A stretch of DNA of 48,385 nt from a virus: positions 1-48,385 of the IMG/VR virus record IMGVR_UViG_3300010033_000002. The stretch is one strand, 5' to 3'. The translations under genes were made by a program, and so were the position numbers. Each line of letters begins with the position of its first letter. Within the stretch, counting starts at the first letter, position 1. Below, one piece after another: positions 19,549 to 34,176 of this stretch. The notes under the pieces were generated by a model, which worked only from the letters and a program-made list of their open reading frames with translations, was not told where the DNA came from and did no database searches.

Positions 19549-20005
19549 CGTGCCTCAGTTTGTTGGCAAGATTGGTGATATGCTTAGCTTCTGCTTTAGA
19601 TGGTGTCCAACTTGTATACAAGTCTGATTGGACTTTTTTAGCCTTAACATATTCGGGCAGAGGTTTGCACCAATCGAAACCTTTTTCACTCAGCAAACTT
19701 CGTATTATATCTGCCTGTTTTTTAGACACAAAGCCTCTTGTGGAGTATTGCTTGACTACAGATGAGTAAAACCTTTTTCTAAACTCTGAACGAAATTTGA
19801 CAGCCTTATAGCACTTAATAAACAATTCCATCATTGGTGCTGTCATGGCACCATAATAGGCGTTGCGTCTATCATCATCACAAATAAAAACTTTCCATAG
19901 GGCTTTTCTATAAACCTTTCGACAAGAAAAGCCTATTCCATCGGGGTTGTCATCTGATATTGCTGCCCCACAAATGCAGCATCTTCTTCCCTCAAATGTT
20001 TCCAT
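19544..20005 (-). CDS. First early-arm gene; Cys-containing hypothetical protein
   Basis: CCICG...SC near the N-terminus. Preceded by the conserved leader and a sigma70-like promoter. Confidence 0.75.
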   Translation of the reverse strand: METFEGRRCCICGAAISDDNPDGIGFSCRKVYRKALWKVFICDDDRRNAYYGAMTAPMMELFIKCYKAVKFRSEFRKRFYSSVVKQYSTRGFVSKKQADIIRSLLSEKGFDWCKPLPEYVKAKKVQSDLYTSWTPSKAEAKHITNLANKLRHA

Positions 20006-20035
20006 GTGCGCTCCTTTGTTGTGGTTGACCTTAAT
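20005..20035 (-). promoter_or_regulatory. Conserved 31-nt translation-initiation leader, copy 2
   Basis: Minus strand ATTAAGGTCAACCACAACAAAGGAGCGCACA, followed by TG of the start codon. Confidence 0.6.
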
Positions 20036-20049
20036 TGCTGTACATGATC

Positions 20050-20078
20050 AAGATACCAAGGCCTGGAAGGCCTGTCAA
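20050..20078 (-). promoter_or_regulatory. Sigma70-like promoter for the leftward early operon
   Basis: Minus strand TTGACA (20078-20073), a 17-nt spacer, then TATCTT (20055-20050). It sits about 40 nt upstream of the ATG at 20005. Confidence 0.55.
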
Positions 20079-20598
20079 GGTTTTTATTACTATTTTTAAT
20101 ATTTTGGGGATCACTGATATATCAGAGGCTAAGATGCCCTATTGACAAGGGTTTCAGGCCGTGGTGCTTGTAAGTGCTTGATATGATTGGAATAACCAAT
20201 GGGCAAGGCTGAGTGTTTTCCGAACGCTTGTTCAGGGTGTTCCATGATGTGGACTTTGGCGTGGAAAATGTTTCATAGGAGGCCTGTCAATAGTAAAGAT
20301 GTTAAAAAGTGTAAATTTCATGTAACATTGGCTTAGTGCTACCCCTGTTACGTTTTTGTAGAATATTCTACACTTTTTTAATAAGGGCCTGATATTGTTA
20401 TATATTGTTTACACTTTTGGGTTTTTGTTTTCAAGTTGTTGATATTACAAGGTAATCTGCTGTTCCGCCGCGCATGTTACCGAGATCATTGTATATATTT
20501 TTAAGTCCATGATATTATTGAGATTAACAGTGTTAGGGGACAGGTAACAATGTTTATGTCATTTGTGTCACGCCGGAAACCCTTGAGGCTGTAGGCGC

Positions 20599-20623
20599 GG
20601 GACAAAGTTCCGGACATGACACG
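20599..20623. repeat. Left arm of the 25-bp inverted repeat
   Basis: GGGACAAAGTTCCGGACATGACACG. The reverse complement of 20787-20811 is GGGACAAAATGCCGGACATGACACG, matching at 23 of 25 positions. Confidence 0.85.
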
Positions 20624-20786
20624 ATTCTGAGAGAAAAGTATTTTTTAGATTAGCAAGTGTTTATTAATATACAACGTTTACAGAGGTGAACACTGTTATT
20701 TTGGTCGTAAGTTACTGATATAATTGGCGATCCGAACTGATGTCTGATATATCAGATTTCAGCGATTTTTCGCGCTTTTTCTGGGC

Positions 20787-20811
20787 CGTGTCATGTCCGG
20801 CATTTTGTCCC
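20787..20811. repeat. Right arm of the 25-bp inverted repeat
   Basis: CGTGTCATGTCCGGCATTTTGTCCC, 163 nt from the left arm. Confidence 0.85.
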
Positions 20812-21279
20812 GGCCCTTTATCCATGCATGTTTCACGCGCTTGCGCTGAGGACACGAAAAAAGTTTTGGCACTTTTGTCTGGATCGTTAGTTATATCAAT
20901 AGGTTGTATGAACATTGAGTAAATTCAAGCACATAGGCACGAACAACCCAATATAACTTGTAATATCAATGACTTACGTTAAAATATACATGTGCGTGAG
21001 TATAACTAACTATATCAGTAACTTGTGGCATAACGGTTTTGAAAATAGAGATTTTGTAACGGTCATTTGGTACCACGTTCGTAACATTTCATACCACATT
21101 GTGGCAGTACCCCATCAAGCAAGAAGTGTGCCGACTGAACGACCATTCATAAAATCGCCAAGATCCGCTTGTGCCAGGGCTTTCCACGATTGGGGATATA
21201 TAACCAATGAACGGGCATTCATTTTTGGGTCATTATGACACATCATGTAACTTTTGATTAGATCTTGGAGGATTTAAAG

Positions 21280-21313
21280 AATGTGAGCCTAGATCTTACA
21301 CCAGGCTCACATT
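21280..21313. other. Perfect 11-bp stem-loop
   Basis: AATGTGAGCCT - 12-nt loop - AGGCTCACATT. There is no flanking U-tract. It is preceded by GGAGGATTTAAAGAATGTGA, an SD followed by a start-stop pair. Confidence 0.5.
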
Positions 21314-21338
21314 GAGGGAGGGTTATAAAAAGGTTGGG

Positions 21339-21437
21339 ATGCTTGATCTGATTCTTGTCTTATTAGTTCATGGTCTGTGTCTTTTCACCATCAACCTCAG
21401 TCCATGTCGCTGTGACTGTTCCGGTATCGTCGTGTAG
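21339..21437 (+). CDS. 32-aa hydrophobic Cys-tailed micro-ORF (speculative)
   Basis: Product MLDLILVLLVHGLCLFTINLSPCRCDCSGIVV. The SD is weak (AAAAGGTTGGG). It sits just downstream of the 21280-21313 hairpin. Confidence 0.15.
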   Translation: MLDLILVLLVHGLCLFTINLSPCRCDCSGIVV

Positions 21438-21610
21438 TTTTTGCACTTCCTTGGATCATTTGCCCATGATGTCATGTAGCAAGCCTGGTGATATCCATAC
21501 AGATGATGAGGACAGGAAGTGTTTTCACATTCGGGTATTCTATAGTTAAGTCATTGTTTTCTCCATACATTTAACTAATGTTAAGCAACAACCGTGCCAA
21601 CAAGCACAGA

Positions 21611-21765
21611 GCTAAAACATGGCTACATAACATCACATCAACGACAAAGGCCTAAACTTTCGTTTTAAGAGAGTTTAGGCCTTTGTCGGTACGGTAACAC
21701 TCAGAAAAGCTGAACCGATATGTTGTTGATTTTACTAACGATACTAACGTTAGATTAGTGTTAAC
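21611..21765 (-). repeat. Copy D of the three-copy intergenic element
   Basis: Its reverse complement begins TTAACACTAATCTAACGTTAGTAT...AAAATCAACAACATATCGGTTCAGCTTTTCTGAGTGTTACC and ends ...GTTATGTAGCCATG. It starts 4 nt after the endolysin stop. Confidence 0.7.
21641..21687 (-). terminator. Perfect 17-bp hairpin downstream of the endolysin unit (probable terminator)
   Basis: CGACAAAGGCCTAAACT - 13-nt loop - AGTTTAGGCCTTTGTCG. On the minus strand it is followed by TTGATGTGATGTT, which is only moderately U-rich. Confidence 0.55.
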
Positions 21766-21768
21766 TAT

Positions 21769-22320
21769 TCAAAAGTTTTTGCCACCTGAAAGGAAGCGCA
21801 TAATCCAGCCTGAAAGGAAGCGCCTATTGCTGTAGAGCTTGTCAAGACGGGCACGGGAATCTTTCATGCATAGAGTGTTGTAGCGTTTTATCAAAGCAAA
21901 TGCAAAGTAATAATACAAGTCACATGCTTCGTTAGTTTCAAGAGCGTTTATAGCCTCTATGCTTTTAGGACCAATGGAACCATCAACTTTAACTCCAATC
22001 TCTTTTTGTAGACTTTTTACAGGCCATGATACACCCATGTTGACAACACTGGTGAAGAGCAAGCTGGCTAAGTCCTGGTAATTAATGTCGTCGCCTTTTA
22101 TTCTGTTCCAGAATTCTGTACGGTAAAGAGCCTTGACATGATCATTGGCAAGGGTATTATCTCCAGGACCTACGACATACTCCCATCCCTCCCATTCAGG
22201 GAAAGCTTTCATGGATATACCAGCATAGGTAAGACCTCCTTTGTCTGTGGGGTCATCAACGAGCTTATACCCACCTTCAAGTTCCATGAGTAAGTTAAAG
22301 CACGGTTCAAAGTCTGCCAT
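21769..22320 (-). CDS. Endolysin: GH108-type muramidase with C-terminal peptidoglycan-binding domain
   Basis: LMELEGGYKLVDDPTDKGGLTYAGIS is the GH108 EGGY...D.GG.T.GI signature. VKVDGSIGPKSIEAINAL is PG_binding_3-like. Confidence 0.88.
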   Translation of the reverse strand: MADFEPCFNLLMELEGGYKLVDDPTDKGGLTYAGISMKAFPEWEGWEYVVGPGDNTLANDHVKALYRTEFWNRIKGDDINYQDLASLLFTSVVNMGVSWPVKSLQKEIGVKVDGSIGPKSIEAINALETNEACDLYYYFAFALIKRYNTLCMKDSRARLDKLYSNRRFLSGWIMRFLSGGKNF

Positions 22321-23993: not shown

Positions 23994-24106
23994 TATTTTC
24001 AGAATGTGACTATTATGTAACTATTTTATAGCCACACTGCACAATTTATACCACATGTCAACGATAAACTATTGCAAAGCCTGATTTAATGGTGTAAACT
24101 GTATGC

Positions 24107-24682
24107 ATGGATGCTCTACGTGAAAAATTGGATAGGCTGATTTATCTTGCGTCTGAGTCTCCCTTGTCTGCTGAGGGGGAGCGCGCGGACGAGCTTAATG
24201 CTGAAGTCCGCGCGCTTTTCCCGCTCTTTGACCCCGATAAATCTCACAACGACGAAAAACTAAATGACTATTTCCTTGACGTGTATGGGCACCGCAGGAG
24301 TATTGGTTTGCAAGTATCAGAAGCAGCACAGATGGAAGAGATATCCGGTACGCTAATGTCAATGATGCTACAGGGTGAGGGCCTTAGCCTTGAAAGATTT
24401 GTTGAACTTGCAAAGCGGGAGGTATCCGCCATAGCAACATTCAAGCGCACCAATCTTGAGGCCATAGAAGACCACATCCAGGGCAAGCATAAAGACAGCT
24501 GGAGAGCTGCCATAGCCCTCCTTGAAAAAGTACTGCCTGCACAGTACGGACAACCTCTTGATCTCACTGGAAATGACGAAGAGTCAGAAGTCATCACAGA
24601 AGAAATGTCAGGCAAAGAATCAGGCAATGCGTTTGCAGAGTTCATTAATGGAGTGAATGAAGATGCAGACAACCAAGGTTAA
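24107..24682 (+). CDS. terS: Terminase small subunit (probable)
   Basis: It lies immediately upstream of and overlapping TerL. SWRAAIALLEKVLPAQYG resembles the W.AA.WLLER..P..YG small-terminase motif. Confidence 0.6.
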   Translation: MDALREKLDRLIYLASESPLSAEGERADELNAEVRALFPLFDPDKSHNDEKLNDYFLDVYGHRRSIGLQVSEAAQMEEISGTLMSMMLQGEGLSLERFVELAKREVSAIATFKRTNLEAIEDHIQGKHKDSWRAAIALLEKVLPAQYGQPLDLTGNDEESEVITEEMSGKESGNAFAEFINGVNEDADNQG

Positions 24683-26306
24683 ATGGCCTCCTGATTTCAC
24701 AAAGGAATGGCAACGTAGAGAGACCATATTTAAAAGGCTACGCAATAGCAGAGAACTACAAGCAAGCGCAAAAGCCTACTACGCTGAACGTCCCATTCAA
24801 TTCATATGCGATTTCGGTGTTATCTATGAACCAAGAAACGCTATGAAACAAGCACCCACTTTAATGCCCTTTATGCTGTTTGACAGGCAAAAGGATTTCA
24901 TAACCTTTGTAATGGCCGCATTATATAAAGGCGCAAATGGCCTGTGTGAAAAGTCAAGGGATGTAGGCGCTACATGGCTTTCAGCATGGCTCTCAATATA
25001 CCTGTGGGCATTTGTTCCTGGCTCAAGTGTGGGATGGGGCAGCAAGAAAGCAAAGACCGTTGATACATTAGGCGATCCTGGATCGCTCTTTGAAAAGCTC
25101 AGGATAGGTATCAAGTACCTGCCCTATTGGTTCTTGCCCAAAGGGTGGGACTCAGACAAGCACTCTTTTTACATGAAGATAATCAACCCTGAAACAGGGT
25201 CAACAATCATAGGTGAAGCAGGTAAAAACATTGGGCGTGGGGGCCGTACGTCCATATACTTTAAGGATGAGTCAGCACACTACGAACACGCAGAGTCAAT
25301 AGAGGCCGCACTGTTAGCAAACACTGATGTCCAGATCGATATATCCTCAGTCAATACAATAGGGGGAGTGTTTCACAGAAAGAAACAATCGGGTGTTGTC
25401 TGGAGCAAAGACAAAGACCTTGTTAAAGACGCCACTAACATTTTCATATTTGATTGGCGTGACCACCCTGGTAAGGACCAAAAGTGGTACGATGAGAAAA
25501 GACAAAAGTCTAAGAACGAAGGTATATTGCACGTGTTCGCACGTGAGGTTGACAGGGACTACTCAGCCACATCATTAGGTATTGTCATACCACAAATATG
25601 GGTTAAGGCCGCGATAGATGCTCATAAAGCGATAGGTTTCGATTGTGAAGACGATATAAGCATATCAGGGCTTGACGTTGCAGATGGCGGCTTGGACATG
25701 AATTCCCATGCCAACCGTAAAGGGGTTATACTGCGCCATTGTTCTACATGGTCAGAAGTAGCAGAGGACACTGGAGAAACCGCAAGGATTGCTATATCAG
25801 AAGCTCAAGAGCTTGGAGCAACAGAACTACAGTACGATTCTATAGGCGTAGGGTCTGGTATCAAAGCCGAAGCTAACAGACTCAAAAAAGAAGGCGTGCT
25901 AAAAGAGTCTTCAGGGCTTAGCGTTGTTGCATGGAATGCTGCGAATGACCCATCAGACCCCTACGACTACGTTATACCTGATGATGATTCTTCGCCTACT
26001 AATAAAGAATTCTATGCCAACCTTAAAGCACAAGGTTGGTGGATGTTAAGAAGACGTTTTGAAAAGACTTATAAGGCAGTAGTGAAGGGAGTCAAGTATC
26101 CATACGACGAACTTATCAGCATATCATCTGAACTTGATAGATTGCACGAAATCACAGCACAGTTGTCACAACCCACATACAGTCATGACGGTGTTAAAAA
26201 GCTACTTATAAATAAGACTCCCGACGGCATGTCGTCCCCTAATGATGGTGATGCCATTATGATGTGTTACCACCCAGTCATTGAAGAGGAAATCTTAGTG
26301 TCATGA
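24657..26306 (+). CDS. terL: Terminase large subunit
   Basis: EKSRDVGATWLS is a P-loop-like segment. SIYFKDESAH is Walker B-like. SGLDVADGGLD is the nuclease-domain acidic motif. Size and position fit TerL. Confidence 0.85.
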   Translation: MKMQTTKVKWPPDFTKEWQRRETIFKRLRNSRELQASAKAYYAERPIQFICDFGVIYEPRNAMKQAPTLMPFMLFDRQKDFITFVMAALYKGANGLCEKSRDVGATWLSAWLSIYLWAFVPGSSVGWGSKKAKTVDTLGDPGSLFEKLRIGIKYLPYWFLPKGWDSDKHSFYMKIINPETGSTIIGEAGKNIGRGGRTSIYFKDESAHYEHAESIEAALLANTDVQIDISSVNTIGGVFHRKKQSGVVWSKDKDLVKDATNIFIFDWRDHPGKDQKWYDEKRQKSKNEGILHVFAREVDRDYSATSLGIVIPQIWVKAAIDAHKAIGFDCEDDISISGLDVADGGLDMNSHANRKGVILRHCSTWSEVAEDTGETARIAISEAQELGATELQYDSIGVGSGIKAEANRLKKEGVLKESSGLSVVAWNAANDPSDPYDYVIPDDDSSPTNKEFYANLKAQGWWMLRRRFEKTYKAVVKGVKYPYDELISISSELDRLHEITAQLSQPTYSHDGVKKLLINKTPDGMSSPNDGDAIMMCYHPVIEEEILVS

Positions 26307-26740
26307 TGGACGCGCAACACGTATTGCTCATAATAACGGTGTTGTTTTTGATACTGCAATTCTTGTACCAAGCGTGGTCAAAGAACCAGACACAGAAGGT
26401 ACTTGACTCACACATAGCGCACACTGAGAAAGTTATTAAAGCAAACCAGGAACAAAGTAATGTAATACTCCGCTCAATTGAGGCAGGCGTAAATAGGTTT
26501 GACGAACCTGTTGAACTTACTAAGCGTACATATGGTGTGGTGAGAGAATTAAAAGCCATGCATGAAATACGTGATGAGGACGGGCGACCATTATGGTATA
26601 TGCCAAAGGAAGTTATACAAACTCAGCGTGAACTTGTGCAACTAACAATGACCGTAGCAACAACACAAGAAAAGTTAACGCTTCTTTTGGAACGCCAAGA
26701 AATACATATTAGCTCAATCAAAGAGGGCAGATGCAATTGA
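26303..26740 (+). CDS. N-terminally membrane-anchored coiled-coil protein (i-spanin-like or antiholin-like topology)
   Basis: ATGA overlap with TerL. TM segment VLLIITVLFLILQFLY is followed by a helical, charged region. Confidence 0.7.
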   Translation: MMDAQHVLLIITVLFLILQFLYQAWSKNQTQKVLDSHIAHTEKVIKANQEQSNVILRSIEAGVNRFDEPVELTKRTYGVVRELKAMHEIRDEDGRPLWYMPKEVIQTQRELVQLTMTVATTQEKLTLLLERQEIHISSIKEGRCN

Positions 26741-26760
26741 CATGCCAGTCGTGATTAAAG

Positions 26761-26912
26761 CTAAGTCATGGCTATATTATAACAAATCCCGTTTAAGGGG
26801 GTAAATTTAGCGTTTAACAAAGGTTAGTGCCACATGCGTATGTTTACATTGGAAAAGTCTGAATCAATATGTTACTGATTTGATTGAGCATATTAACATT
26901 AGATAAGTGTAC
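26761..26912 (-). repeat. Copy C of the three-copy intergenic element
   Basis: Its reverse complement begins GTACACTTATCTAATGTTAATAT...AAATCAGTAACATATTGATTCAGACTTTTCCAATGTAAAC and ends ...GTTATAATATAGCCATGAC. On the plus strand, ATATTAACATTAGATAAGTGT ends 35 nt before the ATG at 26946. Confidence 0.7.
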
Positions 26913-26945
26913 GATAATTAAAAATAATTAAGTAAGGAGAGTGTT

Positions 26946-27287
26946 ATGGCAGTTGTAGCGTTAAACAGACGTAGAGATGGCAAGCCCGGAGGGACATTAA
27001 GGTTGTTAACAACGGCGGCAGCAGGCATGTCTGATGCTGTTCAGATTTTCAGTTTGCCATCAGGCAAGTGCATAACTGTTACCCTGATGCCATCAACGAG
27101 TACTGCAAAGGTACAGTTTTCCACCAGCCCTGATGAACTTGTAGAGAATGACACAGCCAATTGGCACGACTGGGCAGCAGGGGATGTTACTGCCACAACT
27201 ACGTCGGCTTTTGCCTCACAGGTGACTGCGTTGCGGTCTGTGGTGGTTTCTGGTACTGCCGACATTATAATGGAGGTTGTAGTGTGA
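26946..27287 (+). CDS. Small beta-rich protein, distant paralog of 36706..37098
   Basis: SD AAGGAGAGTGTTATG. STAKVQFSTSPDE...W.DW parallels FTAKLQHSPDNSTWTD in the head-proximal gene. Confidence 0.75.
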   Translation: MAVVALNRRRDGKPGGTLRLLTTAAAGMSDAVQIFSLPSGKCITVTLMPSTSTAKVQFSTSPDELVENDTANWHDWAAGDVTATTTSAFASQVTALRSVVVSGTADIIMEVVV

Positions 27288-27460
27288 GCCTTGAAAATGC
27301 ATTAGAAATAACCTTAGAGCAAAGCCTTGAAACAGGTTTAGAACAAAAATACTCAGGCTCAACCCCTACACCCCGCCCGAGTCCATGGATACTTGAAACA
27401 GGTAGATGGAATGATGATGGCATATGGGTTGATACAGAGACTTGGAGGGACACACCATGA
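27284..27460 (+). CDS. 58-aa Trp-rich small protein (GTG start)
   Basis: GGAGG lies 7 nt upstream of the GTG at 27284. GTGTGA overlaps the upstream stop, and its own stop overlaps the next ATG (ATGA). Confidence 0.45.
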   Translation: MSLENALEITLEQSLETGLEQKYSGSTPTPRPSPWILETGRWNDDGIWVDTETWRDTP

Positions 27461-30400
27461 AACGCGCTTTACTTGCACTAACATTTTTACTTTTGCTGTG
27501 CTCAAATGCTTACGCAATTGACGCTATTCAGCCCAATGAAACCGGGCTTTCAGCACGAACAAAAATCAATGAAGCTTTTGGAGACATAACAGACCTTAAA
27601 GCTACAGCACCGACCACAGAACAAAAAACTATCCTGGGCTATCTGACTGATGAGACGGATGTTGTTAACTCATCCAAGGCTTTCAGGTTTCCACCTGGTA
27701 CTGTATATGTAGGTCAGACAGGTGTTAATACTGCTGTAATGGCACTTGGTGTCAGGAATGATCACACCGGTGATACCAGCATAGTTATTGCACAGGATTA
27801 CACAGGCACAGGGTTTGAAAATGCCTATGTTTACAGAACTGTAGCAGCAGATACAGTACCGTTGAATGATCCGGCAGGAACTGATGTTGCAAACACAGCG
27901 CAGTTTACAGCAACGACAACTGCTGATGAACTTATCCATACCGTAACAGTTGCAACAAATCAAGCTGATACAGCCGTAACATTTGATGTTACCTTAAGGC
28001 TTAACAGCCATACGGGCATGGAGATATTTGAGTTTGCAGGGAACTTGACCACTGATGCCACAGGACTTGCAACACTAAATCTCAGGACGAGCGGAAACCC
28101 TGTTATTGTTGATAACGCCACAACACTCTATGTCACTATCAATTGCTCAGGCATGTTAGGCCGTACAGTGGGTATGTCTTTTGTACCCAACTTGACTATT
28201 CACAGGGTACAGCTTGCCAGGAGTGACATAACAACTGCTGACAATATAATCACGCAACTTCAAGCCAAGACAGGCGATGACAGGTTAGATGCATCGGCCA
28301 TAAAGAACCTGCCTTCTACTGGTGCATACCTTACAAGCACAAGAGTTCCGACCGGTGTAGTATCAGGAACATGGACACAGGTTGATTTCAACGGTGTTCA
28401 CTTCCTGGCAGATAATACAGTAACAACATTTGCCGCCGGAGCCGCTGCCACTTTTGGCAGCGACACATTCTTCGCCGTTACCAACAATAACACGGCTAAT
28501 ATCACGTTTGATCTCAGCGCTCATGCTGCCACATTCAGTGGCAGTGAAAGTGGAAATACGGACACGATAAACGCCGGTACGACTACTGTGTACTATCATG
28601 ATAACGGCAGTCTTGCTCCGATATCCAATTACAATGAGGCCACAGGCACGGGTGGCGCAAGTGGAGACCATCCCGTGGTGCTCACCAGGGACACACCATC
28701 ATTGGCTGACCTTGGAACAATAGCCGGTGAAAGTGTCGGGGACAATTCGGGCTTATGGCTTGTAGCAAGTGACCAGATCTCAAGCATTGAAACAAACGTT
28801 GATAGCAGTATTATGATAAGGTCTTTGCGCTCAGGTATACTTGATGCCAATGGCGCGGAGATATCCACAACGGCTGTGCAGAAATCGGGTGTGATACTTG
28901 CAGGTGGTACAGTTGTAAGAGTGTTTAGCGCTACTGATTTGCGTGTAGTGTCAGGTCCTCTTATGGCAGCAGGTTCAAGGTATCCCGATATACCTGTCGT
29001 AACGTCGCCTTTAAGCCTTGTTGGTAATCAGATCATATATAACACCTATCGTAACCGCACCCTTGTATTGTCTGATTCCACAGGCACATTTTCTGTGTAC
29101 CTACCAAGTCTGCAAAATGCTCTTGACTTGTCATACCTGGATCGTAACGACGTATTTGCTTTTCGTAATGACACACCTAATGATGCTGTGTTTCGTATCA
29201 GGACCTTTCAGGTTGGTACATTTTTCAGCAGCGGAGGGCAAACTATAGACCTCAGCGCAGGCCAAACCCTTGTTGTTTCTCCTGCGCCGTCTGGTGCAGT
29301 ATGGCAGGTTTTAGCACTGGGTCAAAATTCCGATATAAACACTGAAACAATTACACTGAATACGGACTGGTATAGAGATGAAGCCGACGCCACAGCGGCA
29401 GACAATAGTGTCAGGTTACATTACAATCAGACAATTGAAAGTGGACTTGTCAGGGACCACATACTTGTAGACGATACAGGGCACACCAACAATCCGATAT
29501 CACTGAGATTTCAGCATAGGAATGTACAGGATGATATTGCTTGGATTCAGTGGTGGACAACCTGGGATTCAAGCGTACCCTCGTTAGGAGGCACCGTTGA
29601 AGAGATTGAAGCCAATATACCAACTGCATTGACCTATATAAACAGCAACATCGCATCTGGATTTGACTTTGAAATAGCCGCGCCTGACAGTGTATTGTCA
29701 ATACAGAGCATCGGATGGATATCAGGTAATGAGGTCAGGATCACGTTACACTCTGCCTTTATATCTCCAAGTTTCACAGTAAATCATCCTGTCAGGATAA
29801 ATGGAGCCACAAACAGTGTTCATAATGGCGTGTTTCTTATTGACAGCATTGGTACAACAGGAAGTAACATAACCATACATATTACTAATCCCGGTGTCAC
29901 TGATGGCACTACTGACGAGACAGCCGGTGGTTTTGTTGATGTTCCGGTTTATGCTGATGTTGTGTTTATCTCAAATGACCTCAGACAGGTGAATTTTAAC
30001 CTGTATAAAGACAGCGCAAGGACGAGTTTATGGACCACTATAAACTCCGATTGGTTTGACCCTGAGCACACTGGCGGGTCAAGTGTGTTGTCCATAGGCT
30101 ACAATACTGACATTCAGACACTTGGTTCTCAACTTGCCTTGCAAGACGATGCCGGGGACTGGTTTTCTGTTAAGGGTGGTCCACGCAATACGGTTGGCCT
30201 GCTGGATAACAGAACAAGCTATGTCAGTTCAGGGGTGTACACAAATCCGAGCCATGAGGTTATAAACATTGACACTCTTGGCATAGGCACATTTTATATA
30301 CCTGAGCACCCCAACCACCTTGAACCAGGAGAATCAAGAGTATATAGGATTCATGCCTACTCTACAAACGGAGGAAATGACACCACTGTGACGGCAGGCT

Positions 30401-31041
30401 CAATAGGCCAGCCCATAACATTTGACGAAGGTTTTCTTGGATTTGATATACTGCCTGGTAACTTTGGCGTATTCGAGCTTTACAATGATGGCACAACAAG
30501 TGGCGTCAGGATACTGTCGCCTGTAAGTAAATCCTCATCATCAACCACGTTGTACACTACGGCATCAGAGGCCAGTGTGGCTAACACTGACCCATTACCC
30601 ATGTCGTTTATTGACTTAATCAGCTCACAAAATGAGGACATAAACAGCAGGTTTTTTGCATTTGGGAGTCCGGCTGATTCTATCAACATGAGGGCAAATG
30701 CGGATTATACATTTGTGGGGTCTGTTGAAGTGTTGTTTAACGGTACAGAGGGTACAGGTATGCTATTTGTCCCTGTGACTCTGATGCCCATAATCAATGG
30801 TGATGACAAGGAGGAATTTGCCCATACTGTGAGTTTGGTCTTTTCAAGGAATGGTCAGACAGGTAGCTCAGCACCTAAGTTTTCACACACTTTGAAGGTA
30901 GCTTTTGAATGGCAGGGCAGTGTGAATGATACGCTATTTTACGATGTAAGGTTCGGAACATTTCCGGCAGGTTATGACCGGAGTGATATACAGGTTAGAA
31001 ACTGGAAGTTTTCCCAAACTGCGGAACTTAATTTAGACTAA
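27457..31041 (+). CDS. Giant (1194 aa) Thr/Ser/Asn/Gly-rich fibre/adhesin-like protein with a Sec-type signal peptide
   Basis: The start is chosen at the ATGA-coupled ATG. The N-terminus MKRALLALTFLLLLCSNAYA|ID is a canonical n-h-c signal ending in AxA. SARTKINEAFGDITDL resembles N-terminal motifs of phage fibres. Confidence 0.8.
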   Translation: MKRALLALTFLLLLCSNAYAIDAIQPNETGLSARTKINEAFGDITDLKATAPTTEQKTILGYLTDETDVVNSSKAFRFPPGTVYVGQTGVNTAVMALGVRNDHTGDTSIVIAQDYTGTGFENAYVYRTVAADTVPLNDPAGTDVANTAQFTATTTADELIHTVTVATNQADTAVTFDVTLRLNSHTGMEIFEFAGNLTTDATGLATLNLRTSGNPVIVDNATTLYVTINCSGMLGRTVGMSFVPNLTIHRVQLARSDITTADNIITQLQAKTGDDRLDASAIKNLPSTGAYLTSTRVPTGVVSGTWTQVDFNGVHFLADNTVTTFAAGAAATFGSDTFFAVTNNNTANITFDLSAHAATFSGSESGNTDTINAGTTTVYYHDNGSLAPISNYNEATGTGGASGDHPVVLTRDTPSLADLGTIAGESVGDNSGLWLVASDQISSIETNVDSSIMIRSLRSGILDANGAEISTTAVQKSGVILAGGTVVRVFSATDLRVVSGPLMAAGSRYPDIPVVTSPLSLVGNQIIYNTYRNRTLVLSDSTGTFSVYLPSLQNALDLSYLDRNDVFAFRNDTPNDAVFRIRTFQVGTFFSSGGQTIDLSAGQTLVVSPAPSGAVWQVLALGQNSDINTETITLNTDWYRDEADATAADNSVRLHYNQTIESGLVRDHILVDDTGHTNNPISLRFQHRNVQDDIAWIQWWTTWDSSVPSLGGTVEEIEANIPTALTYINSNIASGFDFEIAAPDSVLSIQSIGWISGNEVRITLHSAFISPSFTVNHPVRINGATNSVHNGVFLIDSIGTTGSNITIHITNPGVTDGTTDETAGGFVDVPVYADVVFISNDLRQVNFNLYKDSARTSLWTTINSDWFDPEHTGGSSVLSIGYNTDIQTLGSQLALQDDAGDWFSVKGGPRNTVGLLDNRTSYVSSGVYTNPSHEVINIDTLGIGTFYIPEHPNHLEPGESRVYRIHAYSTNGGNDTTVTAGSIGQPITFDEGFLGFDILPGNFGVFELYNDGTTSGVRILSPVSKSSSSTTLYTTASEASVANTDPLPMSFIDLISSQNEDINSRFFAFGSPADSINMRANADYTFVGSVEVLFNGTEGTGMLFVPVTLMPIINGDDKEEFAHTVSLVFSRNGQTGSSAPKFSHTLKVAFEWQGSVNDTLFYDVRFGTFPAGYDRSDIQVRNWKFSQTAELNLD

Positions 31042-31051
31042 GGAGGCAGAC

Positions 31052-31399
31052 ATGATTAAACGTTTTATGAACCCTATTACAGTATTCGTGGTTATATTTT
31101 CACTGCTGGTGTTAACGTACATTTCCGTTGCAGAACAGCCAAGGGCTAAGGGCCAGTTTGTTCAGGCTGGTATGATATGCCTGTACCCAACAAACGGTGT
31201 AAGCGTATATTCACATGATGGTACATTGTCCCTTGACACTGTTTACTTGCAATCTGAATATCCTGTATTGTTCCAGGTTATTGGCACGGATTACAATGAT
31301 GCATCTAAAGGCGATGATCCATTGACGCAGTTTCGCACTCCGCCTGCGAGTGACTTCCCAGCCTTGCCTGGCAATGCAGAATGGAGGATACGCTTTTGA
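31052..31399 (+). CDS. Signal-peptide/anchor protein with phage tail-collar (MdpB-like) domain
   Basis: PITVFVVIFSLLVLTYISVA|EQ is a hydrophobic leader. SEYPVLFQVIGTDYND...TQFRTPP resembles the Collar-domain core yP.LF..iG..YG...F.lP. Confidence 0.6.
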   Translation: MIKRFMNPITVFVVIFSLLVLTYISVAEQPRAKGQFVQAGMICLYPTNGVSVYSHDGTLSLDTVYLQSEYPVLFQVIGTDYNDASKGDDPLTQFRTPPASDFPALPGNAEWRIRF

Positions 31400-31596
31400 A
31401 TAAGCTACAGATGTCAACAACGGCAGGTATCGGCGGAGTAGTTGCGGCCCTTGGCATGGTCTCTGATTTGTTCGTGGGCTACAACGTATCGGAGTTATGG
31501 CAGGCTATATTGACCATACCAATATCGGAGGCCATGACCGCATTTTCCATGCTGGCCGCGTCCATTTTTGCCGTGCTTTTTAATGAGGAAAAATAA
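31381..31596 (+). CDS. Small two-TM protein (holin-like); start uncertain
   Basis: TM segments GIGGVVAALGMVSDLFV and AMTAFSMLAASIFAVLF. An alternative start is at 31411. No clear SD. Confidence 0.45.
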   Translation: MEDTLLNKLQMSTTAGIGGVVAALGMVSDLFVGYNVSELWQAILTIPISEAMTAFSMLAASIFAVLFNEEK

Positions 31597-31661
31597 CAAT
31601 AAAACATTGATTTTATTCCAGATTTCTGATAACTATATTAATATACCCGGAGGAAATCCCA

Positions 31662-32186
31662 ATGCTTAAACGCCATATCGAATATGTACAGTTCCAAGGC
31701 ATCAGCACCATGTCAAAGCTGATTAAAAAATGGACACGCGACAATGATTCTCATTCAGCGGTGCTGGATCGTGAACGCATGTCACATGAACAACTCATTG
31801 AGCAATGGCCTCATGAAGGAGGGTTTAAAAGCTGGATGGACTACAATTCCTTTAGCCCTGGACACACAACGGGCACACCTTATCAGGTGTGGAGTCTAAA
31901 GGTGGAACCCCACGTCTATGACTATGTTATGGGCAAATACCGGGAATCAGCAGACAACAAGAAGCCCTACGACTGGTCAGGCATTAAGGCCTTTGCTCTT
32001 AAAGGTGAGGATAACCCCGAACAGACATTTTGCTCTGAGGAAATGTCAACACATCTCATCCAGGCCATGGCTAATGAAGGTCAGGATCATTGGAGCCTCA
32101 TTGACCCGGCTGTAGTTCATCCAGGCTACTGGAGAAACATACTCATTGCAATGGGCGCACAGCCTACCATTAAGGGTGTCGTATGA
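31662..32186 (+). CDS. Permuted NlpC/P60-superfamily (YiiX-like) cell-wall peptidase or amidase (probable)
   Basis: SD GGAGGA. MSKLIKKWTRDNDSHSAVL supplies the His first, then YDWSGI...FCSEEMSTHLIQA supplies the Cys. This order fits the circularly permuted papain-like fold. Confidence 0.5.
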   Translation: MLKRHIEYVQFQGISTMSKLIKKWTRDNDSHSAVLDRERMSHEQLIEQWPHEGGFKSWMDYNSFSPGHTTGTPYQVWSLKVEPHVYDYVMGKYRESADNKKPYDWSGIKAFALKGEDNPEQTFCSEEMSTHLIQAMANEGQDHWSLIDPAVVHPGYWRNILIAMGAQPTIKGVV

Positions 32187-34129
32187 ACTTGTTCCAAAGA
32201 CTGAACCCTTTTACCGGATTCCGTAACCTTGCAAGCGCAATGGTTATTAGTCGTGATCGCCCACGGAATCCGGTTTTCTCAGAAATGAGTATCAGGCGAG
32301 CTGTTAAGGAAGGTTACAAAGAAAACAGTTGGGTTTATAGGTCCATCTTTCTAAAGAGTAAAGCAGCAGGCGCAGTTGCATGGAGCATTGTTGATGGTGA
32401 GGGTACGAAACTTCCTGACCATAGACTAACAACGTTGATAAACCGGCCCAATCCTTTTGTGTCTAAACAGGAGTTGTTTGAGCTTATAACCTCCTGGCTT
32501 GAGCTTTCTGGAAACTCTTATCTCAAACGTGCTGATAGCAATGGCTTAACGCAGGAGTTGTGGCCTGTATCGCCTGATAGACTCCGGCCTGTACCCACAA
32601 CTGACGTGGAAAAGTGGGTTGAAGGGTATAACCTTGACAATAAAAAAAGGCCTGGTGGTGGACCTGAAATAACATACCAGCCTGAAGAGGTCATACACCA
32701 TAAATATTTAAACCCTGCAAATCCTATCATTGGTATTGGCCCTCTTGAAGTCCTGTCAAAAACCGTAGACGTTGACAACGAGCAACGAAACTTCAACATG
32801 AGGACCACACAGAATCGCGGCGTTGTTGATGGCGTGTTTATGTTTAAACGTAAGTTCTCAAGCTTGTCAGAAAGCGACGCTGTGTCAGACAGGATAAACG
32901 AAAAGTTTGGTGGGAAACGGTCCTTTGGTGTACTGGGTAATGAAGCCTCTTATCAAAGGGTTGCATTAACACCTGCTGAAATGGACTTCATTCAATCGAG
33001 GCGCTCTAACAGAGAAGAGATCTTTATCTGTTTTGGTGTACCCCCTGTTTATGCTGGTGTTATGGAAGCGGCTACTTTCAACAATTATAGAACATCAGAG
33101 TTAACCTTTTGGTTTGGGACAATGTTGTTTCTTTTGGATGATTTGCGGGACACTTTGAATTTTGCCTTTGCAGAAGAGTTGAGGCCGGGTGAAAGGTTTG
33201 CATATGACATAAGCAATATCCAGGCCATACGCGAAGCTATGTTAGACAGGACGGAAGTGGCCCAACAATTGTATGACATGGGTGTACCTTTCGATCAATT
33301 GAACAGAGTGTTCGAATTGGGTTTTGAGGAGTTTCCAGGTTGGGGTGATCCAAACCCGAGACGAGCAAGAGAGACCGTTACAACGCCCACAGAGGAAAGA
33401 GAGTCAAATAGTGTCAAGACCGAAAAGCGCCAACAGTCGAAACCCATTGAGTTTCGTATATCAGGCGAAGCACTAAGAGACGCCATAGAGGAAAACGCCA
33501 ATGATAACCAGGGCGTTATAGCTGACTTGTTTCAAACACAACAGGATGCTGTATTTGAGGCTCTAAACAACAACATTGATACAGACGTACGTGCAGTACT
33601 CGACAACTCTGTAGACCTGTTTATGGACAGGTTAAATACATTTTACGTGCAAACGGGCGTAATGTTCGGGCAACAAACTGAAGTCGAGACACGACAGAGC
33701 GTTGAAGAGTTAACGGCAGAGATTGAAAACTACCTTGATGAAGAAAGGGTCTTGCTTAATGAAGTTGCCAATATCAATGCAACTACTGCTGAAAAGATTG
33801 TAAACCAGGTAAGAAGTGCCCTTGAATCGGGAGCCAATATATCCACGCTCCAGCAAGCCATAATAGACACGGGTATACTGAGTGAGGTTAGAGCCTTAGG
33901 TCTTGCAAGGACAATAAGCGCTAATGCTGCCAACCTGGGGCAACTCAGAAGCGCGGCATTGAACGGGGCAAACGAAAAGACCTGGATCACAGCAGCAAGT
34001 GATGTCAGGGAGACCCATCAAGACCTTGACCAGGTTACTATCAGTCTTAACGATACTTTCAATGTAGGCGGAACAAGGGCGGAATATCCCGCTGCAAATA
34101 ACTTGCCCCCTGCCGAGCGTATGAATTGA
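32183..34129 (+). CDS. Portal protein (HK97 family) fused to a Mu F / SPP1 gp7-like minor head domain
   Basis: Portal segments: ELITSWLELSGNSYLKR and GVPPVYAGVMEAATFNNYRTSELTFW. C-terminal segment WITAASDVRETHQDLDQV...FNVGG..AEYPAANNLPPAE resembles the MuF core. Confidence 0.85.
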   Translation: MNLFQRLNPFTGFRNLASAMVISRDRPRNPVFSEMSIRRAVKEGYKENSWVYRSIFLKSKAAGAVAWSIVDGEGTKLPDHRLTTLINRPNPFVSKQELFELITSWLELSGNSYLKRADSNGLTQELWPVSPDRLRPVPTTDVEKWVEGYNLDNKKRPGGGPEITYQPEEVIHHKYLNPANPIIGIGPLEVLSKTVDVDNEQRNFNMRTTQNRGVVDGVFMFKRKFSSLSESDAVSDRINEKFGGKRSFGVLGNEASYQRVALTPAEMDFIQSRRSNREEIFICFGVPPVYAGVMEAATFNNYRTSELTFWFGTMLFLLDDLRDTLNFAFAEELRPGERFAYDISNIQAIREAMLDRTEVAQQLYDMGVPFDQLNRVFELGFEEFPGWGDPNPRRARETVTTPTEERESNSVKTEKRQQSKPIEFRISGEALRDAIEENANDNQGVIADLFQTQQDAVFEALNNNIDTDVRAVLDNSVDLFMDRLNTFYVQTGVMFGQQTEVETRQSVEELTAEIENYLDEERVLLNEVANINATTAEKIVNQVRSALESGANISTLQQAIIDTGILSEVRALGLARTISANAANLGQLRSAALNGANEKTWITAASDVRETHQDLDQVTISLNDTFNVGGTRAEYPAANNLPPAERMN

Positions 34130-34176
34130 CGGTGTACTTTATTGTATAGCATAGGTGATGCTTAAAGGAGAATAAC

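What the first reader, a model, noticed from the sequence alone, without database searches (positions are those of the whole stretch)
27457..31399. Two consecutive phage proteins carry classical Sec-type leaders, including a 1194-aa fibre-like protein
The giant ORF begins MKRALLALTFLLLLCSNAYA|IDAIQ. This has a basic n-region, a hydrophobic core and an AxA cleavage motif. The next ORF begins MIKRFMNPITVFVVIFSLLVLTYISVA|EQ and continues into a tail-collar-like core (SEYPVLFQVIGTDY...FRTPP). Virion proteins assemble in the cytoplasm, so cleavable export signals on fibre-like proteins are unexpected. The signals imply one of three things: export to the envelope of the infected cell (exclusion, adhesion, decoy or matrix functions), an unusual membrane-associated assembly route, or hydrophobic N-termini with a different role.
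Basis: partly seen in the sequence, partly recalled or inferred. Interest (0 to 1): 0.65.

Follow-up and report, generated by a model that had tools for sequence, protein, structure and literature searches.

The report
Phage fibre pair with export leaders
A lytic-looking tailed phage carries a giant fibre protein and its small partner that, unlike about 40 known relatives, both begin with classic bacterial export signals, so this phage probably sends a virion-type fibre out of the cytoplasm; export has not been tested.

Summary
ORF 27457..31041 (1194 aa) starts MKRALLALTFLLLLCSNAYA|IDAIQ. ORF 31052..31399 (115 aa) starts MIKRFMNPITVFVVIFSLLVLTYISVA|EQ. Both start codons have strong Shine-Dalgarno sites, and no credible downstream start exists.

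The two genes form a conserved cassette: a giant fibre followed by an 86-92 aa partner related to the tail-collar domain. It occurs in at least 8 other metagenomic phage loci, in either head-module or tail-fibre positions.

None of 15 fibre homologues and none of about 24 partner homologues has a hydrophobic N-terminus. Every partner homologue starts within a few residues of the predicted SVA|EQ cleavage site. Both leaders are therefore additions specific to this lineage.

The fibre model is mostly beta. It matches phage fibres and C1q/TNF-like knobs, and no enzyme fold matches well. The endolysin is GH108, so the host is probably Gram-negative.

Best reading: both proteins go through Sec and act together in the envelope. 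This resembles the Sec-exported Bdellovibrio MAT fibres. Export, cleavage and function are all inferred.

Rivals are attachment to the virion only after lysis, and an RcGTA-like hydrophobic docking peptide.

It is a single metagenomic genome with an unknown host. I rate it a new variant of a known kind, with moderately high interest.

The parts
27457..31041 (+). Giant fibre-like protein, 1194 aa. The variable N-terminal part covers residues 21 to about 300. The conserved core runs from about residue 300 to 1194.
   Evidence: ORF and translation. Fifteen homologues, all from metagenomes, cover about 74% of the query at the C-terminal end. The AF2 model has pLDDT 62.5 overall, mostly 70-89 (with several lower stretches) over residues 300-1194, and is nearly all beta. 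Foldseek matches phage fibre proteins and C1q/TNF-like knobs. There are no Pfam, PHROG or NCBIfam hits.
27457..27516 (+). Predicted Sec/SPase I signal peptide of the giant: MKRALLALTFLLLLCSNAYA, with cleavage predicted after Ala20.
   Evidence: The n/h/c anatomy and AxA motif are read from the sequence. Hydrophobicity is 3.05 against at most 1.48 in 15 homologues. The SD duplex is -9.8 kcal/mol and no usable downstream start exists. AF2 places a helix at residues 2-15.
30514..31038 (+). Approximate C-terminal all-beta knob, about residues 1020-1194, taken to be the part that matches C1q/TNF-like jelly rolls.
   Evidence: Foldseek against PDB finds EDA-A1, TNF, CD40L, C1q and BxpB, with TM-score 0.6-0.7 normalised to the target over about 170 columns. 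C1q-domain and collagen/C1q phage proteins appear in BFVD. The tool does not report the query range. The placement is inferred from the domain size and the strand pattern.
31052..31399 (+). Small partner protein, 115 aa. It is a divergent relative of the tail-collar domain and always lies directly after the fibre gene.
   Evidence: Homologues of 86-92 aa (one is a 195-aa fusion) follow the giant in L001-L004 and L007-L009, and a partner-family gene also lies in L005. Identity is 58-74%. Collar PF07484 scores 18 bits, below the cut-off. The family profile reaches multi-collar proteins. The best structural match is the cyanophage A-1(L) tail fibre 8kec, probability 0.97, E 0.04.
31052..31132 (+). 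N-terminal leader of the partner: MIKRFMNPITVFVVIFSLLVLTYISVA. It is either a cleavable signal peptide (SVA|EQ) or an N-in signal anchor.
   Evidence: In the alignments, all 13 (A2) and 11 (A4) homologues begin at window residue 26-28. In a search of 1.84 billion representative proteins, no family member carries a hydrophobic extension. The SD duplex is -12.0 kcal/mol. AF2 places a helix at residues 8-24.
27284..27460 (+). 58-aa ORF translationally coupled to the giant. It starts at a GTG preceded by GGAGG and ends in an ATGA overlap. It has five LExx repeats and then a Trp-rich tail, WILETGRWNDDGIWVDTETW. It may be a fibre adaptor and has no leader.
   Evidence: Sequence. SD duplex -10.5 kcal/mol. 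Its tail is conserved with a 50-aa ORF directly upstream of the giant homologue in L007 (blastp E 6e-10, tblastn 5e-7). The motif occurs only in these two loci. An independent gene caller also calls it.
26946..27287 (+). 113-aa ORF of unknown function, coupled to the 58-aa ORF by a GTGA overlap. It sits where small proteins (81-102 aa) sit in other loci. It has no leader.
   Evidence: It has no family hit and did not match the RcGTA spike-base model NF048002, although the equivalent L001 protein did. No significant relatives were found in the fetched loci or in PDB.
31381..31596 (+). 71-aa ORF with two moderately hydrophobic segments, overlapping the 3' end of the partner gene. Whether it belongs to the cassette is uncertain.
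   Evidence: No counterpart exists after the partner gene in other loci. The public gene call gives a 66-aa product here.
26303..26740 (+). 145-aa ORF with an N-terminal transmembrane segment (residues about 7-26), first gene after the large terminase. Whether it belongs to the cassette is uncertain.
   Evidence: It has the highest N-terminal hydrophobicity in the window, 3.50, and a 19-residue window mean of 2.2. It has no meaningful family hit and no overlapping lipoprotein ORF.

Best explanation
The two genes are one conserved fibre cassette. It consists of a large multi-domain fibre ending in a C1q/TNF-like knob and a small collar-type partner encoded immediately downstream. In all other phages found, both proteins lack leaders and are presumably made in the cytoplasm as virion fibres.

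In this phage both proteins have gained N-terminal Sec-type leaders. The proposed mechanism is as follows. Both are made late, from the structural operon between the large terminase and the portal. Both are targeted to SecYEG of a Gram-negative host and translocated unfolded. The fibre's leader is cut after AYA20. The partner's leader is either cut after SVA27 or stays as an N-in membrane tether. The partner then meets the fibre in the periplasm, where it folds or caps it. This would explain why both had to acquire a leader.

The resulting complex acts in the cell envelope as a receptor-binding fibre and is not built into particles in the cytoplasm. Its most likely job is to bind the host's own surface receptor or glycan on the infected cell. 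That would give exclusion, protection of progeny from re-adsorption, or cell-cell adhesion, in the manner of the Sec-exported, surface-displayed MAT fibres of Bdellovibrio.

Shown: the leaders exist, the start codons are sound, the leaders are unique to this lineage, the genes are always paired, and the fold class is fibre-like. Inferred: export, cleavage, association in the periplasm, and the biological role.
For: - Tripartite leaders sit on well-supported start codons.
- The leaders are lineage-specific. None of 15 fibre homologues and none of about 24 partner-family members has a hydrophobic N-terminus.
- Every partner homologue starts at window residue 26-28, essentially at the predicted SVA|EQ site, so the leader is a clean N-terminal add-on.
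- The two genes are adjacent in every locus examined that carries the fibre gene, despite very different genomic positions, which argues that they work together. Two independent leader gains on two functionally linked genes are hard to explain without selection for a shared new location.
- An N-terminus with 2 positive charges followed by 11-19 uncharged hydrophobic residues is what SecA and SRP recognise (established Sec biology). The first 14 mature residues of the fibre are net acidic, which is compatible with export (sequence).
- The fold is fibre plus C1q/TNF-like knob, and no enzyme fold matches well.
- Fibres of about 1000 aa with a signal peptide and TNF-like tips are known to be exported and surface-displayed in a Gram-negative bacterium (PMC10769870).
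- The host is probably diderm. The endolysin is GH108 plus PG_binding_3, and the hosts named in the summary of its phage relatives are all Gram-negative.
- The same sequence was recovered on two contigs.
Against: - No signal-peptide predictor and no experiment was available, so export is an inference.
- This is a single metagenomic genome with no close relative, so conservation of the leaders cannot be assessed.
- The phage looks virulent. It has its own polymerase, primase, helicases and ligase, and no integrase was seen. The genes sit in the late operon, where exclusion functions are less obviously useful.
- The upstream 58-aa adaptor-like gene is retained and translationally coupled to the fibre but has no leader. 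This fits a fibre that still docks on a cytoplasmic virion part better than a free envelope protein.
- The phage has no other recognisable long fibre. The tail genes after the tape measure have no annotation, so the giant may be needed on the particle.
- The periplasm is not the cell surface. Reaching the outside would need a further step for which there is no evidence.
- The AF2 model is only moderately confident (pTM 0.32), and the N-terminal 290 residues are unmodelled.
Confidence: 0.5

Rival explanations
1. Virion maturation outside the cytoplasm. Fibre and partner are exported and fold in the periplasm, but the fibre is still a virion part. After cleavage its N-terminus (IDAIQPNETGLSARTKIN...) docks onto the leaderless 58-aa adaptor, perhaps with the 113-aa protein, already sitting on capsids. 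This happens only when lysis mixes the two compartments.
For: The 58-aa ORF is conserved with the ORF directly upstream of the fibre homologue in L007, and is translationally coupled to the giant. The L007 fibre (P0014) starts MPRYQIANGESGLDVRTNLN. This resembles the window's mature N-terminus, so cleavage would regenerate a normal fibre N-terminus. In siphophage-like loci the cassette lies in the head module. In L001 it lies next to a spike-base protein of the RcGTA family. No other long fibre is recognisable in this phage.
Against: The searches made here found no tailed phage that adds a virion part outside the cytoplasm. Attachment would have to happen in the brief moment of lysis. The resemblance to the P0014 N-terminus is not statistically significant. 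No gain in disulphide capacity explains a periplasmic route, since the mature fibre has a single Cys.
Confidence: 0.22
2. The hydrophobic N-termini are assembly or docking elements, not export signals. The RcGTA head fibre binds the pentameric spike base through its N-terminal Ile/Leu-x repeats. Here the fibre's L6-x-L8-x-F10-x-L12-x-L14 could plug into a base or adaptor in the same way, and both proteins would stay cytoplasmic.
For: RcGTA head fibre residues 2-10 (IALGLGLGL) bind hydrophobic pockets of the Rcc01079 pentamer (PMC7296036). The closest fibre homologue (L001) sits beside a protein that passes the spike_base model NF048002 (31.9 bits against a cut-off of 28). L001 also has a 40-aa ORF starting MAVCIAIGLML. 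The window's giant has hydrophobic residues at five alternating positions (sequence).
Against: Both leaders carry a basic n-region and a -3/-1 small-residue motif, which docking does not need. Their hydrophobic stretches (11 and 16-19 residues) are far longer and more hydrophobic than the Gly-rich RcGTA peptide, and would be captured by SRP or SecA. This reading does not explain why the partner gained a leader exactly at its ancestral start. The window's 113-aa protein does not match the spike-base model. No homologue, including those in head modules, uses such an N-terminus.
Confidence: 0.1
3. Accident or artefact. The leaders are non-functional recent N-terminal extensions, mis-assembled sequence, or the result of a wrong start call, and the proteins behave like their leaderless relatives.
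For: Only one genome carries them. The public gene call of the partner in one copy starts at Met6 (110 aa).
Against: The strongest SD sites precede Met1 in both genes, and no alternative start avoids the hydrophobic segment without deleting conserved residues. The Met6 start still includes the hydrophobic stretch. The sequence was assembled on two contigs. Two independent extensions that both look like canonical leaders, on two adjacent interacting genes, are unlikely by chance: they are the only 2 of 208 ORFs that meet all three criteria. A strong export signal on a 1194-aa cytoplasmic structural protein would be harmful and would be removed by selection.
Confidence: 0.05

Closest known systems
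Bdellovibrio bacteriovorus MAT (mosaic adhesive trimer) fibres (Caulton et al. 2024, PMC10769870)
   Same: These are proteins of about 1000 aa related to phage fibres. They have an N-terminal signal peptide, then a beta-rich N-terminal domain, then a long fibre, and several end in TNF-like tips. They are exported and displayed on the surface of a Gram-negative cell and bind surface glycans. This is the best analogy for how the window's giant would work.
   Different: MAT fibres are chromosomal genes of a predatory bacterium, not genes in a phage structural operon. Thirteen of the 21 carry an S74 chaperone-protease domain, which is absent here. They have no separate collar-type partner gene. 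No sequence relationship was detected. The conserved MAT N-terminal domain could not be compared.
RcGTA head spike: base protein Rcc01079 plus head fibre Rcc01080 (Bardy et al. 2020, PMC7296036)
   Same: A fibre encoded with a small base protein attaches to capsid vertices through a short hydrophobic N-terminal peptide and binds host capsule polysaccharide. The nearest fibre homologue (L001) lies beside a true spike_base family member. In siphophage-like loci the cassette sits in the head module.
   Different: The RcGTA fibre has 325 aa, and its docking peptide is 9 Gly/Leu residues with no basic n-region and no AxA motif. The window's 113-aa protein fails the spike_base model. No homology between Rcc01080 and the giant was shown.
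Tail fibre plus downstream assembly or tip protein pairs (Mu gpS/Tfa, T4 gp37/gp38; from my own knowledge)
   Same: A long fibre gene is followed directly by a small gene whose product folds or caps the fibre tip. The top Foldseek match of the giant is 6o38, which the PDB titles 'Structure of a chaperone-substrate complex'. From memory, not checked here, I believe this entry is a phage tail fibre bound to its assembly protein. In Mu-like myophage loci the cassette occupies the tail-fibre position after the baseplate genes.
   Different: Those pairs are cytoplasmic and have no leaders. The partner here is a collar-type domain, not a Tfa or gp38 fold. TM-scores to 6o38 are low (0.06-0.14).
Phage-encoded envelope proteins with signal sequences: T5 Llp and Cor-type receptor blockers, T4 Imm/Sp (from my own knowledge); T4 antiholin RI with a cleavable signal peptide (PMC8385771)
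   Same: These are phage proteins routed by Sec to the periplasm or outer membrane to act on receptors, DNA entry or lysis timing. They show that tailed phages do use host export for envelope functions.
   Different: They are small dedicated proteins (under about 100-200 aa), often lipoproteins and often early genes. None is a virion-type fibre. The giant has no lipobox.
Streptococcus mitis phage SM1 PblA/PblB (from my own knowledge)
   Same: These are phage tail-fibre-like proteins that also act on the host cell surface as adhesins.
   Different: They have no signal peptides. They reach the surface after phage-induced lysis and bind back to the cell wall. The host is Gram-positive and the phage is temperate.

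Membership tests
Sec/SPase I signal peptide | Positively charged n-region in the first 2-8 residues | tested here: met
   The giant has MKR (+2) and the partner has MIKR (+2), read from the sequence.
Sec/SPase I signal peptide | Hydrophobic h-region of about 7-15 residues | tested here: met
   The giant's h-region is ALLALTFLLLL, 11 residues, with a best 10-residue Kyte-Doolittle mean of 3.05. The partner is a caveat: its uncharged stretch is 16-19 residues (mean 3.37), at or above the usual upper limit, so it may be a signal anchor instead.
Sec/SPase I signal peptide | Small neutral residues at -3 and -1 in a polar c-region, and no Pro at +1 | tested here: met
   The giant has A-Y-A|I after the polar stretch CSN. 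The partner has S-V-A|E but almost no polar c-region and no helix breaker.
Sec/SPase I signal peptide | Positive call by a trained predictor (SignalP, Phobius, DeepTMHMM) | not tested
Sec/SPase I signal peptide | Actual translocation and cleavage | not testable with these tools
   This needs PhoA or Bla fusions, cell fractionation, or N-terminal sequencing.
Bacterial lipoprotein (SPase II) signal | Lipobox [LVI][ASTVI][GAS]C | tested here: not met
The partner's leader has no Cys (sequence).
Phage tail collar domain (Pfam PF07484) | Score at or above the Pfam gathering threshold | tested here: not met
   The score is 18 bits against a cut-off of 24, E 0.003, over residues 40-83. PHROG 38064 'tail collar protein' gives E 0.0047.
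Phage tail collar domain (Pfam PF07484) | Profile-level and structural relationship to collar-domain proteins | tested here: inconclusive
   The family profile reaches multi-repeat proteins with the collar-like motif ..CDGS..Y..LF..IGT.YG.GDG..TF..P (P0040 at E 3e-9, others at 1e-5). The best Foldseek hit is the cyanophage A-1(L) tail fibre, probability 0.97 but E 0.04. This supports a divergent relative, not a proven member.
RcGTA-type head spike (Rcc01079 base plus Rcc01080 fibre) | An adjacent small protein that matches the spike_base model NF048002 | tested here: not met
   The window's 113-aa and 58-aa proteins give no hit at E up to 0.1. The L001 84-aa protein passes with 31.9 bits against a cut-off of 28.
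RcGTA-type head spike (Rcc01079 base plus Rcc01080 fibre) | Fibre N-terminus with five alternating Ile/Leu residues that bind the pentamer | tested here: inconclusive
   L6, L8, F10, L12 and L14 alternate in the giant, but they lie inside a canonical signal peptide, and the intervening residues are not small throughout (sequence).
Bdellovibrio MAT fibre superfamily | N-terminal signal peptide on a fibre of about 1000 aa | tested here: met
   The family description is from PMC10769870.
Bdellovibrio MAT fibre superfamily | Conserved beta-rich domain of about 130 aa directly after the signal peptide | not tested
   No MAT N-terminal sequence was available. The window's residues 21-300 have no detectable homologues by the word-based search and are modelled at pLDDT below 50.
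Bdellovibrio MAT fibre superfamily | Adhesive tip such as a TNF-like domain, or an S74 chaperone-protease | tested here: inconclusive
   TNF/C1q-like matches have TM-score 0.6-0.7 normalised to the target. No Pfam domain of any kind hit the giant, so no S74 domain was detected. No sequence match to the solved MAT tips was found in PDB.
Bdellovibrio MAT fibre superfamily | Intertwined trimer along the whole fibre | not testable with these tools
   Only monomer prediction was available.

The most novel reading that the evidence does not exclude
A tailed phage finishes building its particle outside the cytoplasm. The giant fibre and its collar-type partner are exported by Sec and fold in the periplasm. 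After signal-peptide cleavage the fibre exposes a normal fibre N-terminus, which docks onto the leaderless 58-aa adaptor on capsids only when lysis mixes the compartments. This would be an extracytoplasmic step in Caudoviricetes virion assembly.
Probability: 0.2. Interest if true: 0.85.

Novelty: new variant of a known kind. Interest (0 to 1): 0.62.

Why it matters
Tailed-phage particles are thought to be built entirely in the cytoplasm, and fibre proteins are the standard example of leaderless structural proteins.

Here a fibre and its dedicated partner have both acquired host export signals. For the partner, the signal sits exactly at the ancestral N-terminus. This is a natural experiment: a virion receptor-binding module appears to have been moved to the cell envelope.

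If export is real, one of two things follows. Either the phage turns a structural fibre into an envelope-located or surface tool (receptor masking, exclusion, or sticking infected cells to new hosts). Or it adds a virion part after export. No example of either was found for tailed phages in the literature searched.

It would also show how phage fibres can become cellular adhesins such as the Bdellovibrio MAT family. A single step, gaining a leader on the fibre and on its folding partner, may be enough.

In practice, the cassette is a compact test case that needs only two fusions and one proteomics run. It is also a possible template for secreting engineered receptor-binding proteins.

Tried and rejected
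- **Downstream true start codon:** rejected. The SD energies favour 27457 and 31052, and the alternatives delete conserved residues.
- **Lipoprotein signal on the giant:** rejected, because there is no lipobox.
- **Depolymerase or beta-helix enzyme:** not supported. There is no Pfam, PHROG or NCBIfam hit. The model is multi-domain beta without a long beta-helix, and pectate-lyase-type matches have TM-scores of only 0.07-0.18.
- **Prophage moron or lysogenic conversion:** unlikely. The genome encodes its own DNA polymerase, primase, two helicases, ligase and topoisomerase. No integrase was seen among the proteins scanned.
- **Searches that found nothing:**
  - megablast and tblastn of the region against INPHARED phages;
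  - PDB sequence searches with the giant, its profile and the 113-aa protein;
  - a word-based search with the giant's first 300 residues;
  - the genome-contig scan for the fibre family;
  - IMG/VR and metagenome scans, which added only 1 locus each for the partner (both leaderless over the matched region) and 3 distant partial fibre loci.
- **Cysteine content as a mark of periplasmic adaptation:** inconclusive. The mature giant has 1 Cys against 6 in its closest homologue, but the range among homologues is 0-7.
- **Promoter and terminator scan of 24000-34500:** counts are at the level of shuffled controls, so there is no evidence for a separate transcription unit.
- **Tandem Repeats Finder:** did not detect the 12-nt periodicity behind the five LExx repeats.
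- **145-aa transmembrane protein as an i-spanin with an embedded o-spanin:** no overlapping lipoprotein ORF was found.
- **Host identity:** not resolved. Relatives of the capsid, polymerase and tail proteins are only 30-45% identical. The only clue is that the hosts named in the summary of the endolysin's phage relatives are all Gram-negative.
- **Rfam:** no hits in the window.

Full report
**1. What is in the sequence**

The window is a phage genome of about 48.4 kb. The same sequence occurs on two public contigs of 48,403 and 48,385 nt. The one examined is rotated relative to the window, which suggests a complete circular or permuted genome.

The minus-strand half encodes a replisome: family A DNA polymerase, primase, two helicases, ligase and topoisomerase. 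It also encodes a GH108 plus PG_binding_3 endolysin. The plus-strand half encodes small and large terminase, a portal-MuF fusion, protease, major capsid protein, connectors, a tail-tube-like protein, an 871-aa tape measure and five unannotated distal tail proteins. No integrase was seen among the proteins scanned, so the phage looks like a virulent siphophage.

The hosts named in the summary of the endolysin's phage relatives are all Gram-negative, so a diderm host is likely. Nothing closer than about 30-45% protein identity exists in the phage collection.

Seven genes lie between the large terminase (24657..26306) and the portal (32183..34129):
- a 145-aa protein with an N-terminal transmembrane segment (26303..26740);
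- a 113-aa protein (26946..27287);
- a 58-aa protein (27284..27460);
- the 1194-aa giant (27457..31041);
- the 115-aa protein (31052..31399);
- a 71-aa protein with two weakly hydrophobic segments (31381..31596);
- a 174-aa protein (31662..32186).

The 113-, 58- and 1194-aa genes overlap by GTGA and ATGA, which indicates translational coupling.

**2. Checking the observation**

The giant starts MKRALLALTFLLLLCSNAYA|IDAIQ. It has a basic n-region, an 11-residue h-region, a polar c-region and Ala at -3 and -1. It has no lipobox.

The partner starts MIKRFMNPITVFVVIFSLLVLTYISVA|EQ. It has a basic n-region and a longer uncharged stretch of 16-19 residues ending in SVA. It could therefore be a cleaved signal peptide or an uncleaved N-in anchor.

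The start codons are sound. Predicted SD:anti-SD pairing is -9.8 kcal/mol for ATG 27457 and -12.0 kcal/mol for ATG 31052. Every alternative start either lies within or before the hydrophobic segment or removes conserved sequence. An independent public gene call agrees with these products.

Among 208 ORFs of at least 50 aa in the window, the three most hydrophobic N-termini all lie in this one gene cluster. Only the giant and the partner combine that hydrophobicity with a positive n-region and a -3/-1 motif.

I had no SignalP-type predictor. The leaders were judged by rules and by comparison with relatives.

**3. Comparative evidence**

The giant has 15 homologues, all from metagenomes, on contigs of up to 61 kb, several of them phage-genome-sized. 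They share the C-terminal 880 or so residues (36-66% identity) and differ at the N-terminus, with lengths of 946-1561 aa. The 115-aa protein has homologues of 86-92 aa at 58-74% identity.

In all eight fetched loci that carry the fibre gene, the small gene follows the giant directly. In one locus it is a 195-aa fusion. A ninth short locus, L005, carries a partner-family gene, and the sequence upstream of it was not examined. The two genes are therefore one cassette.

The cassette's position varies:
- after Mu-like baseplate genes, in the tail-fibre position (L002, L008, L009);
- between the portal and the protease (L003, L007);
- after the major capsid protein and beside a protein that passes the NCBIfam model for the RcGTA head-spike base (L001);
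- in a small operon of its own next to the terminase (L004);
- between the terminase and the portal (this window).

It behaves as a mobile fibre module with exchangeable N-terminal docking parts.

No relative has a leader. The best N-terminal hydrophobicity is at most 1.48 in the 15 fibre homologues, against 3.05 here. It is at most 2.24 in about 24 partner-family members, against 3.37 here.

A profile search of 1.84 billion representative proteins found only 13 family members. All start at profile position 1, or carry short hydrophilic or Gly-rich extensions.

In the alignments, every partner homologue begins MxExPR(N/A)KGQF at window residue 26-28, essentially at the predicted SVA|EQ cleavage site. 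The window's 25-27 extra residues are therefore a clean N-terminal addition.

For the giant the argument is weaker but points the same way. The L007 homologue starts MPRYQIANGESGLDVRTNLN. The window's mature end is IDAIQPNETGLSARTKIN. The resemblance is not significant by BLAST. However, these are the only two loci that share the Trp-rich small ORF directly upstream of the fibre.

**4. What the proteins are**

The AF2 model of the giant has pLDDT 62.5 and pTM 0.32. Residues 1-290 are essentially unmodelled, and residues 300-1194 are mostly at pLDDT 70-89, with several lower stretches. The model is a string of beta domains.

Foldseek against PDB gives three kinds of match:
- a chaperone-substrate complex (6o38), which I believe from memory is a phage tail fibre with its assembly protein;
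- a baseplate component of Klebsiella phage KP1;
- many C1q/TNF-like jelly rolls, with TM-score 0.6-0.7 normalised to the target.

Foldseek against BFVD gives uncharacterised Caudovirales proteins, C1q-domain and collagen-like proteins, 'virion protein' and 'tail fiber protein'. No enzyme fold has good local support. The giant is a virion-type fibre with a globular C1q/TNF-like knob.

The partner is a divergent collar-type domain. Pfam Collar is below threshold. The family profile reaches multi-collar proteins. The best structural match is a cyanophage tail fibre.

**5. Mechanism**

Two linked proteins each gained a canonical leader, and in the partner it sits exactly at the ancestral N-terminus. 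The simplest reading is selection for a shared new location.

An N-terminus with two basic residues followed by 11-19 hydrophobic residues will be captured by SecA or SRP in a Gram-negative cell (established Sec biology). It is hard to see how a 1194-aa protein carrying it could stay cytoplasmic.

If the small protein is needed to fold or cap the fibre tip, as downstream fibre partners usually are, then exporting the fibre unfolded would require exporting the partner too. That is the pattern observed.

A precedent shows this is physically possible. Bdellovibrio MAT fibres are about 1000 aa, carry a signal peptide and a beta-rich N-terminal domain, and some have TNF-like tips. They are displayed on the surface of a Gram-negative cell (PMC10769870).

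I therefore put the probability of export at about 0.8.

What the exported complex does is inference. My preferred reading (about 0.5 overall) is an envelope-located receptor-binding complex. It would mask or bind the host's own receptor or glycan, or make infected cells adhesive.

The main rival (about 0.2) is that the fibre is still a virion part and joins capsid-bound adaptors at lysis. Two facts favour it. The leaderless 58-aa adaptor-like gene is retained and translationally coupled to the fibre. The phage has no other recognisable long fibre.

A third reading (about 0.1) takes the hydrophobic N-termini as docking peptides, as in the RcGTA head fibre, whose residues 2-10 (IALGLGLGL) bind the base pentamer (PMC7296036). 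Three points count against it:
- the basic n-regions and AxA/SVA motifs are not needed for docking;
- the hydrophobic stretches are much longer and more hydrophobic than the RcGTA peptide;
- it does not explain the partner's leader.

Artefact or accident is unlikely (about 0.05).

**6. Comparison with known systems, and novelty**

The cassette works most like a MAT fibre, but it is not a shown member of that family. No sequence relationship was detected, it has no S74 domain, and the MAT N-terminal domain could not be tested.

It is related in context to RcGTA-type head spikes and to fibre-plus-assembly-protein pairs. Neither of those carries leaders.

Phage proteins that do use Sec are small dedicated envelope proteins, not virion-type fibres. 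Examples are T4 RI (PMC8385771) and, from my own knowledge, T5 Llp, Cor and T4 Imm/Sp.

Five full-text searches found no tailed-phage fibre or tailspike with a Sec leader. That is absence of evidence in an incomplete library.

I classify the finding as a new variant of a known kind: a phage fibre cassette retargeted by leader acquisition.

**7. Limits**

- It is one metagenomic genome with an unknown host.
- No close relative is available to test conservation of the leaders.
- No predictor and no experiment was available.
- The structure model is of moderate quality and is a monomer only.
- The function after export is unknown.

The decisive tests are cheap: predictors, PhoA or Bla fusions, and virion or N-terminal proteomics.

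Noticed in passing
window 27284..27460 (+): A 58-aa ORF coupled to the giant has five in-register LExx repeats at its N-terminus (LENA LEIT LEQS LETG LEQK). It ends in a Trp-rich tail, WILETGRWNDDGIWVDTETW, shared with a 50-aa ORF directly upstream of the fibre homologue in L007. Five repeats would fit a five-fold capsid vertex, but this is speculation.
   Followed up: partly
window 20005..21769: A stretch of about 1.7 kb has no ORF longer than 90 aa and lies beside the GH108 endolysin gene. It is dense in inverted repeats (31-nt arms at 20593-20623 and 20787-20817; a 20-nt hairpin at 21642-21688) and TGATATATCAGA-like motifs. It has no Rfam hit. It may be an origin or a regulatory region.
   Followed up: partly
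window 26303..26740 (+) and 31381..31596 (+): Two further membrane-type proteins flank the cassette. One is a 145-aa protein with an N-terminal transmembrane segment. The other is a 71-aa protein with two weak hydrophobic segments that overlaps the end of the partner gene. No holin or spanin lies next to the distant endolysin, so these may be lysis proteins or accessory parts of the exported cassette.
   Followed up: partly
window 32183..34129 (+): The portal protein is fused to a Mu-F-like head morphogenesis domain (Phage_portal at residues 50-368, Phage_Mu_F at residues 538-628). The L003 locus has the same fusion.
   Followed up: no
L001 9609..10001: In the locus of the closest fibre homologue, an 84-aa protein passes the RcGTA spike_base model. 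A 40-aa ORF starting MAVCIAIGLML follows it and ends exactly where the fibre gene starts, in another reading frame. Its alternating hydrophobic residues resemble the RcGTA head-fibre docking peptide. It could be a separate adaptor, or a frameshifted N-terminus of the fibre.
   Followed up: partly
L002 8197..12925: In this Mu-like myophage locus the fibre is split into two genes of 599 and 974 aa. The first carries the N-terminal module that is fused to the fibre in P0010 and P0015. This shows how modular the family is.
   Followed up: no
window 31662..32186 (+): A 174-aa protein just before the portal gene has no credible family hit; its only match is a weak, short PHROG hit (E 0.0017) to an unrelated enoyl-CoA hydratase family. 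It contains a ..FCSEE.. motif and several His residues, which might suggest a small peptidase or amidase. This was not tested.
   Followed up: no
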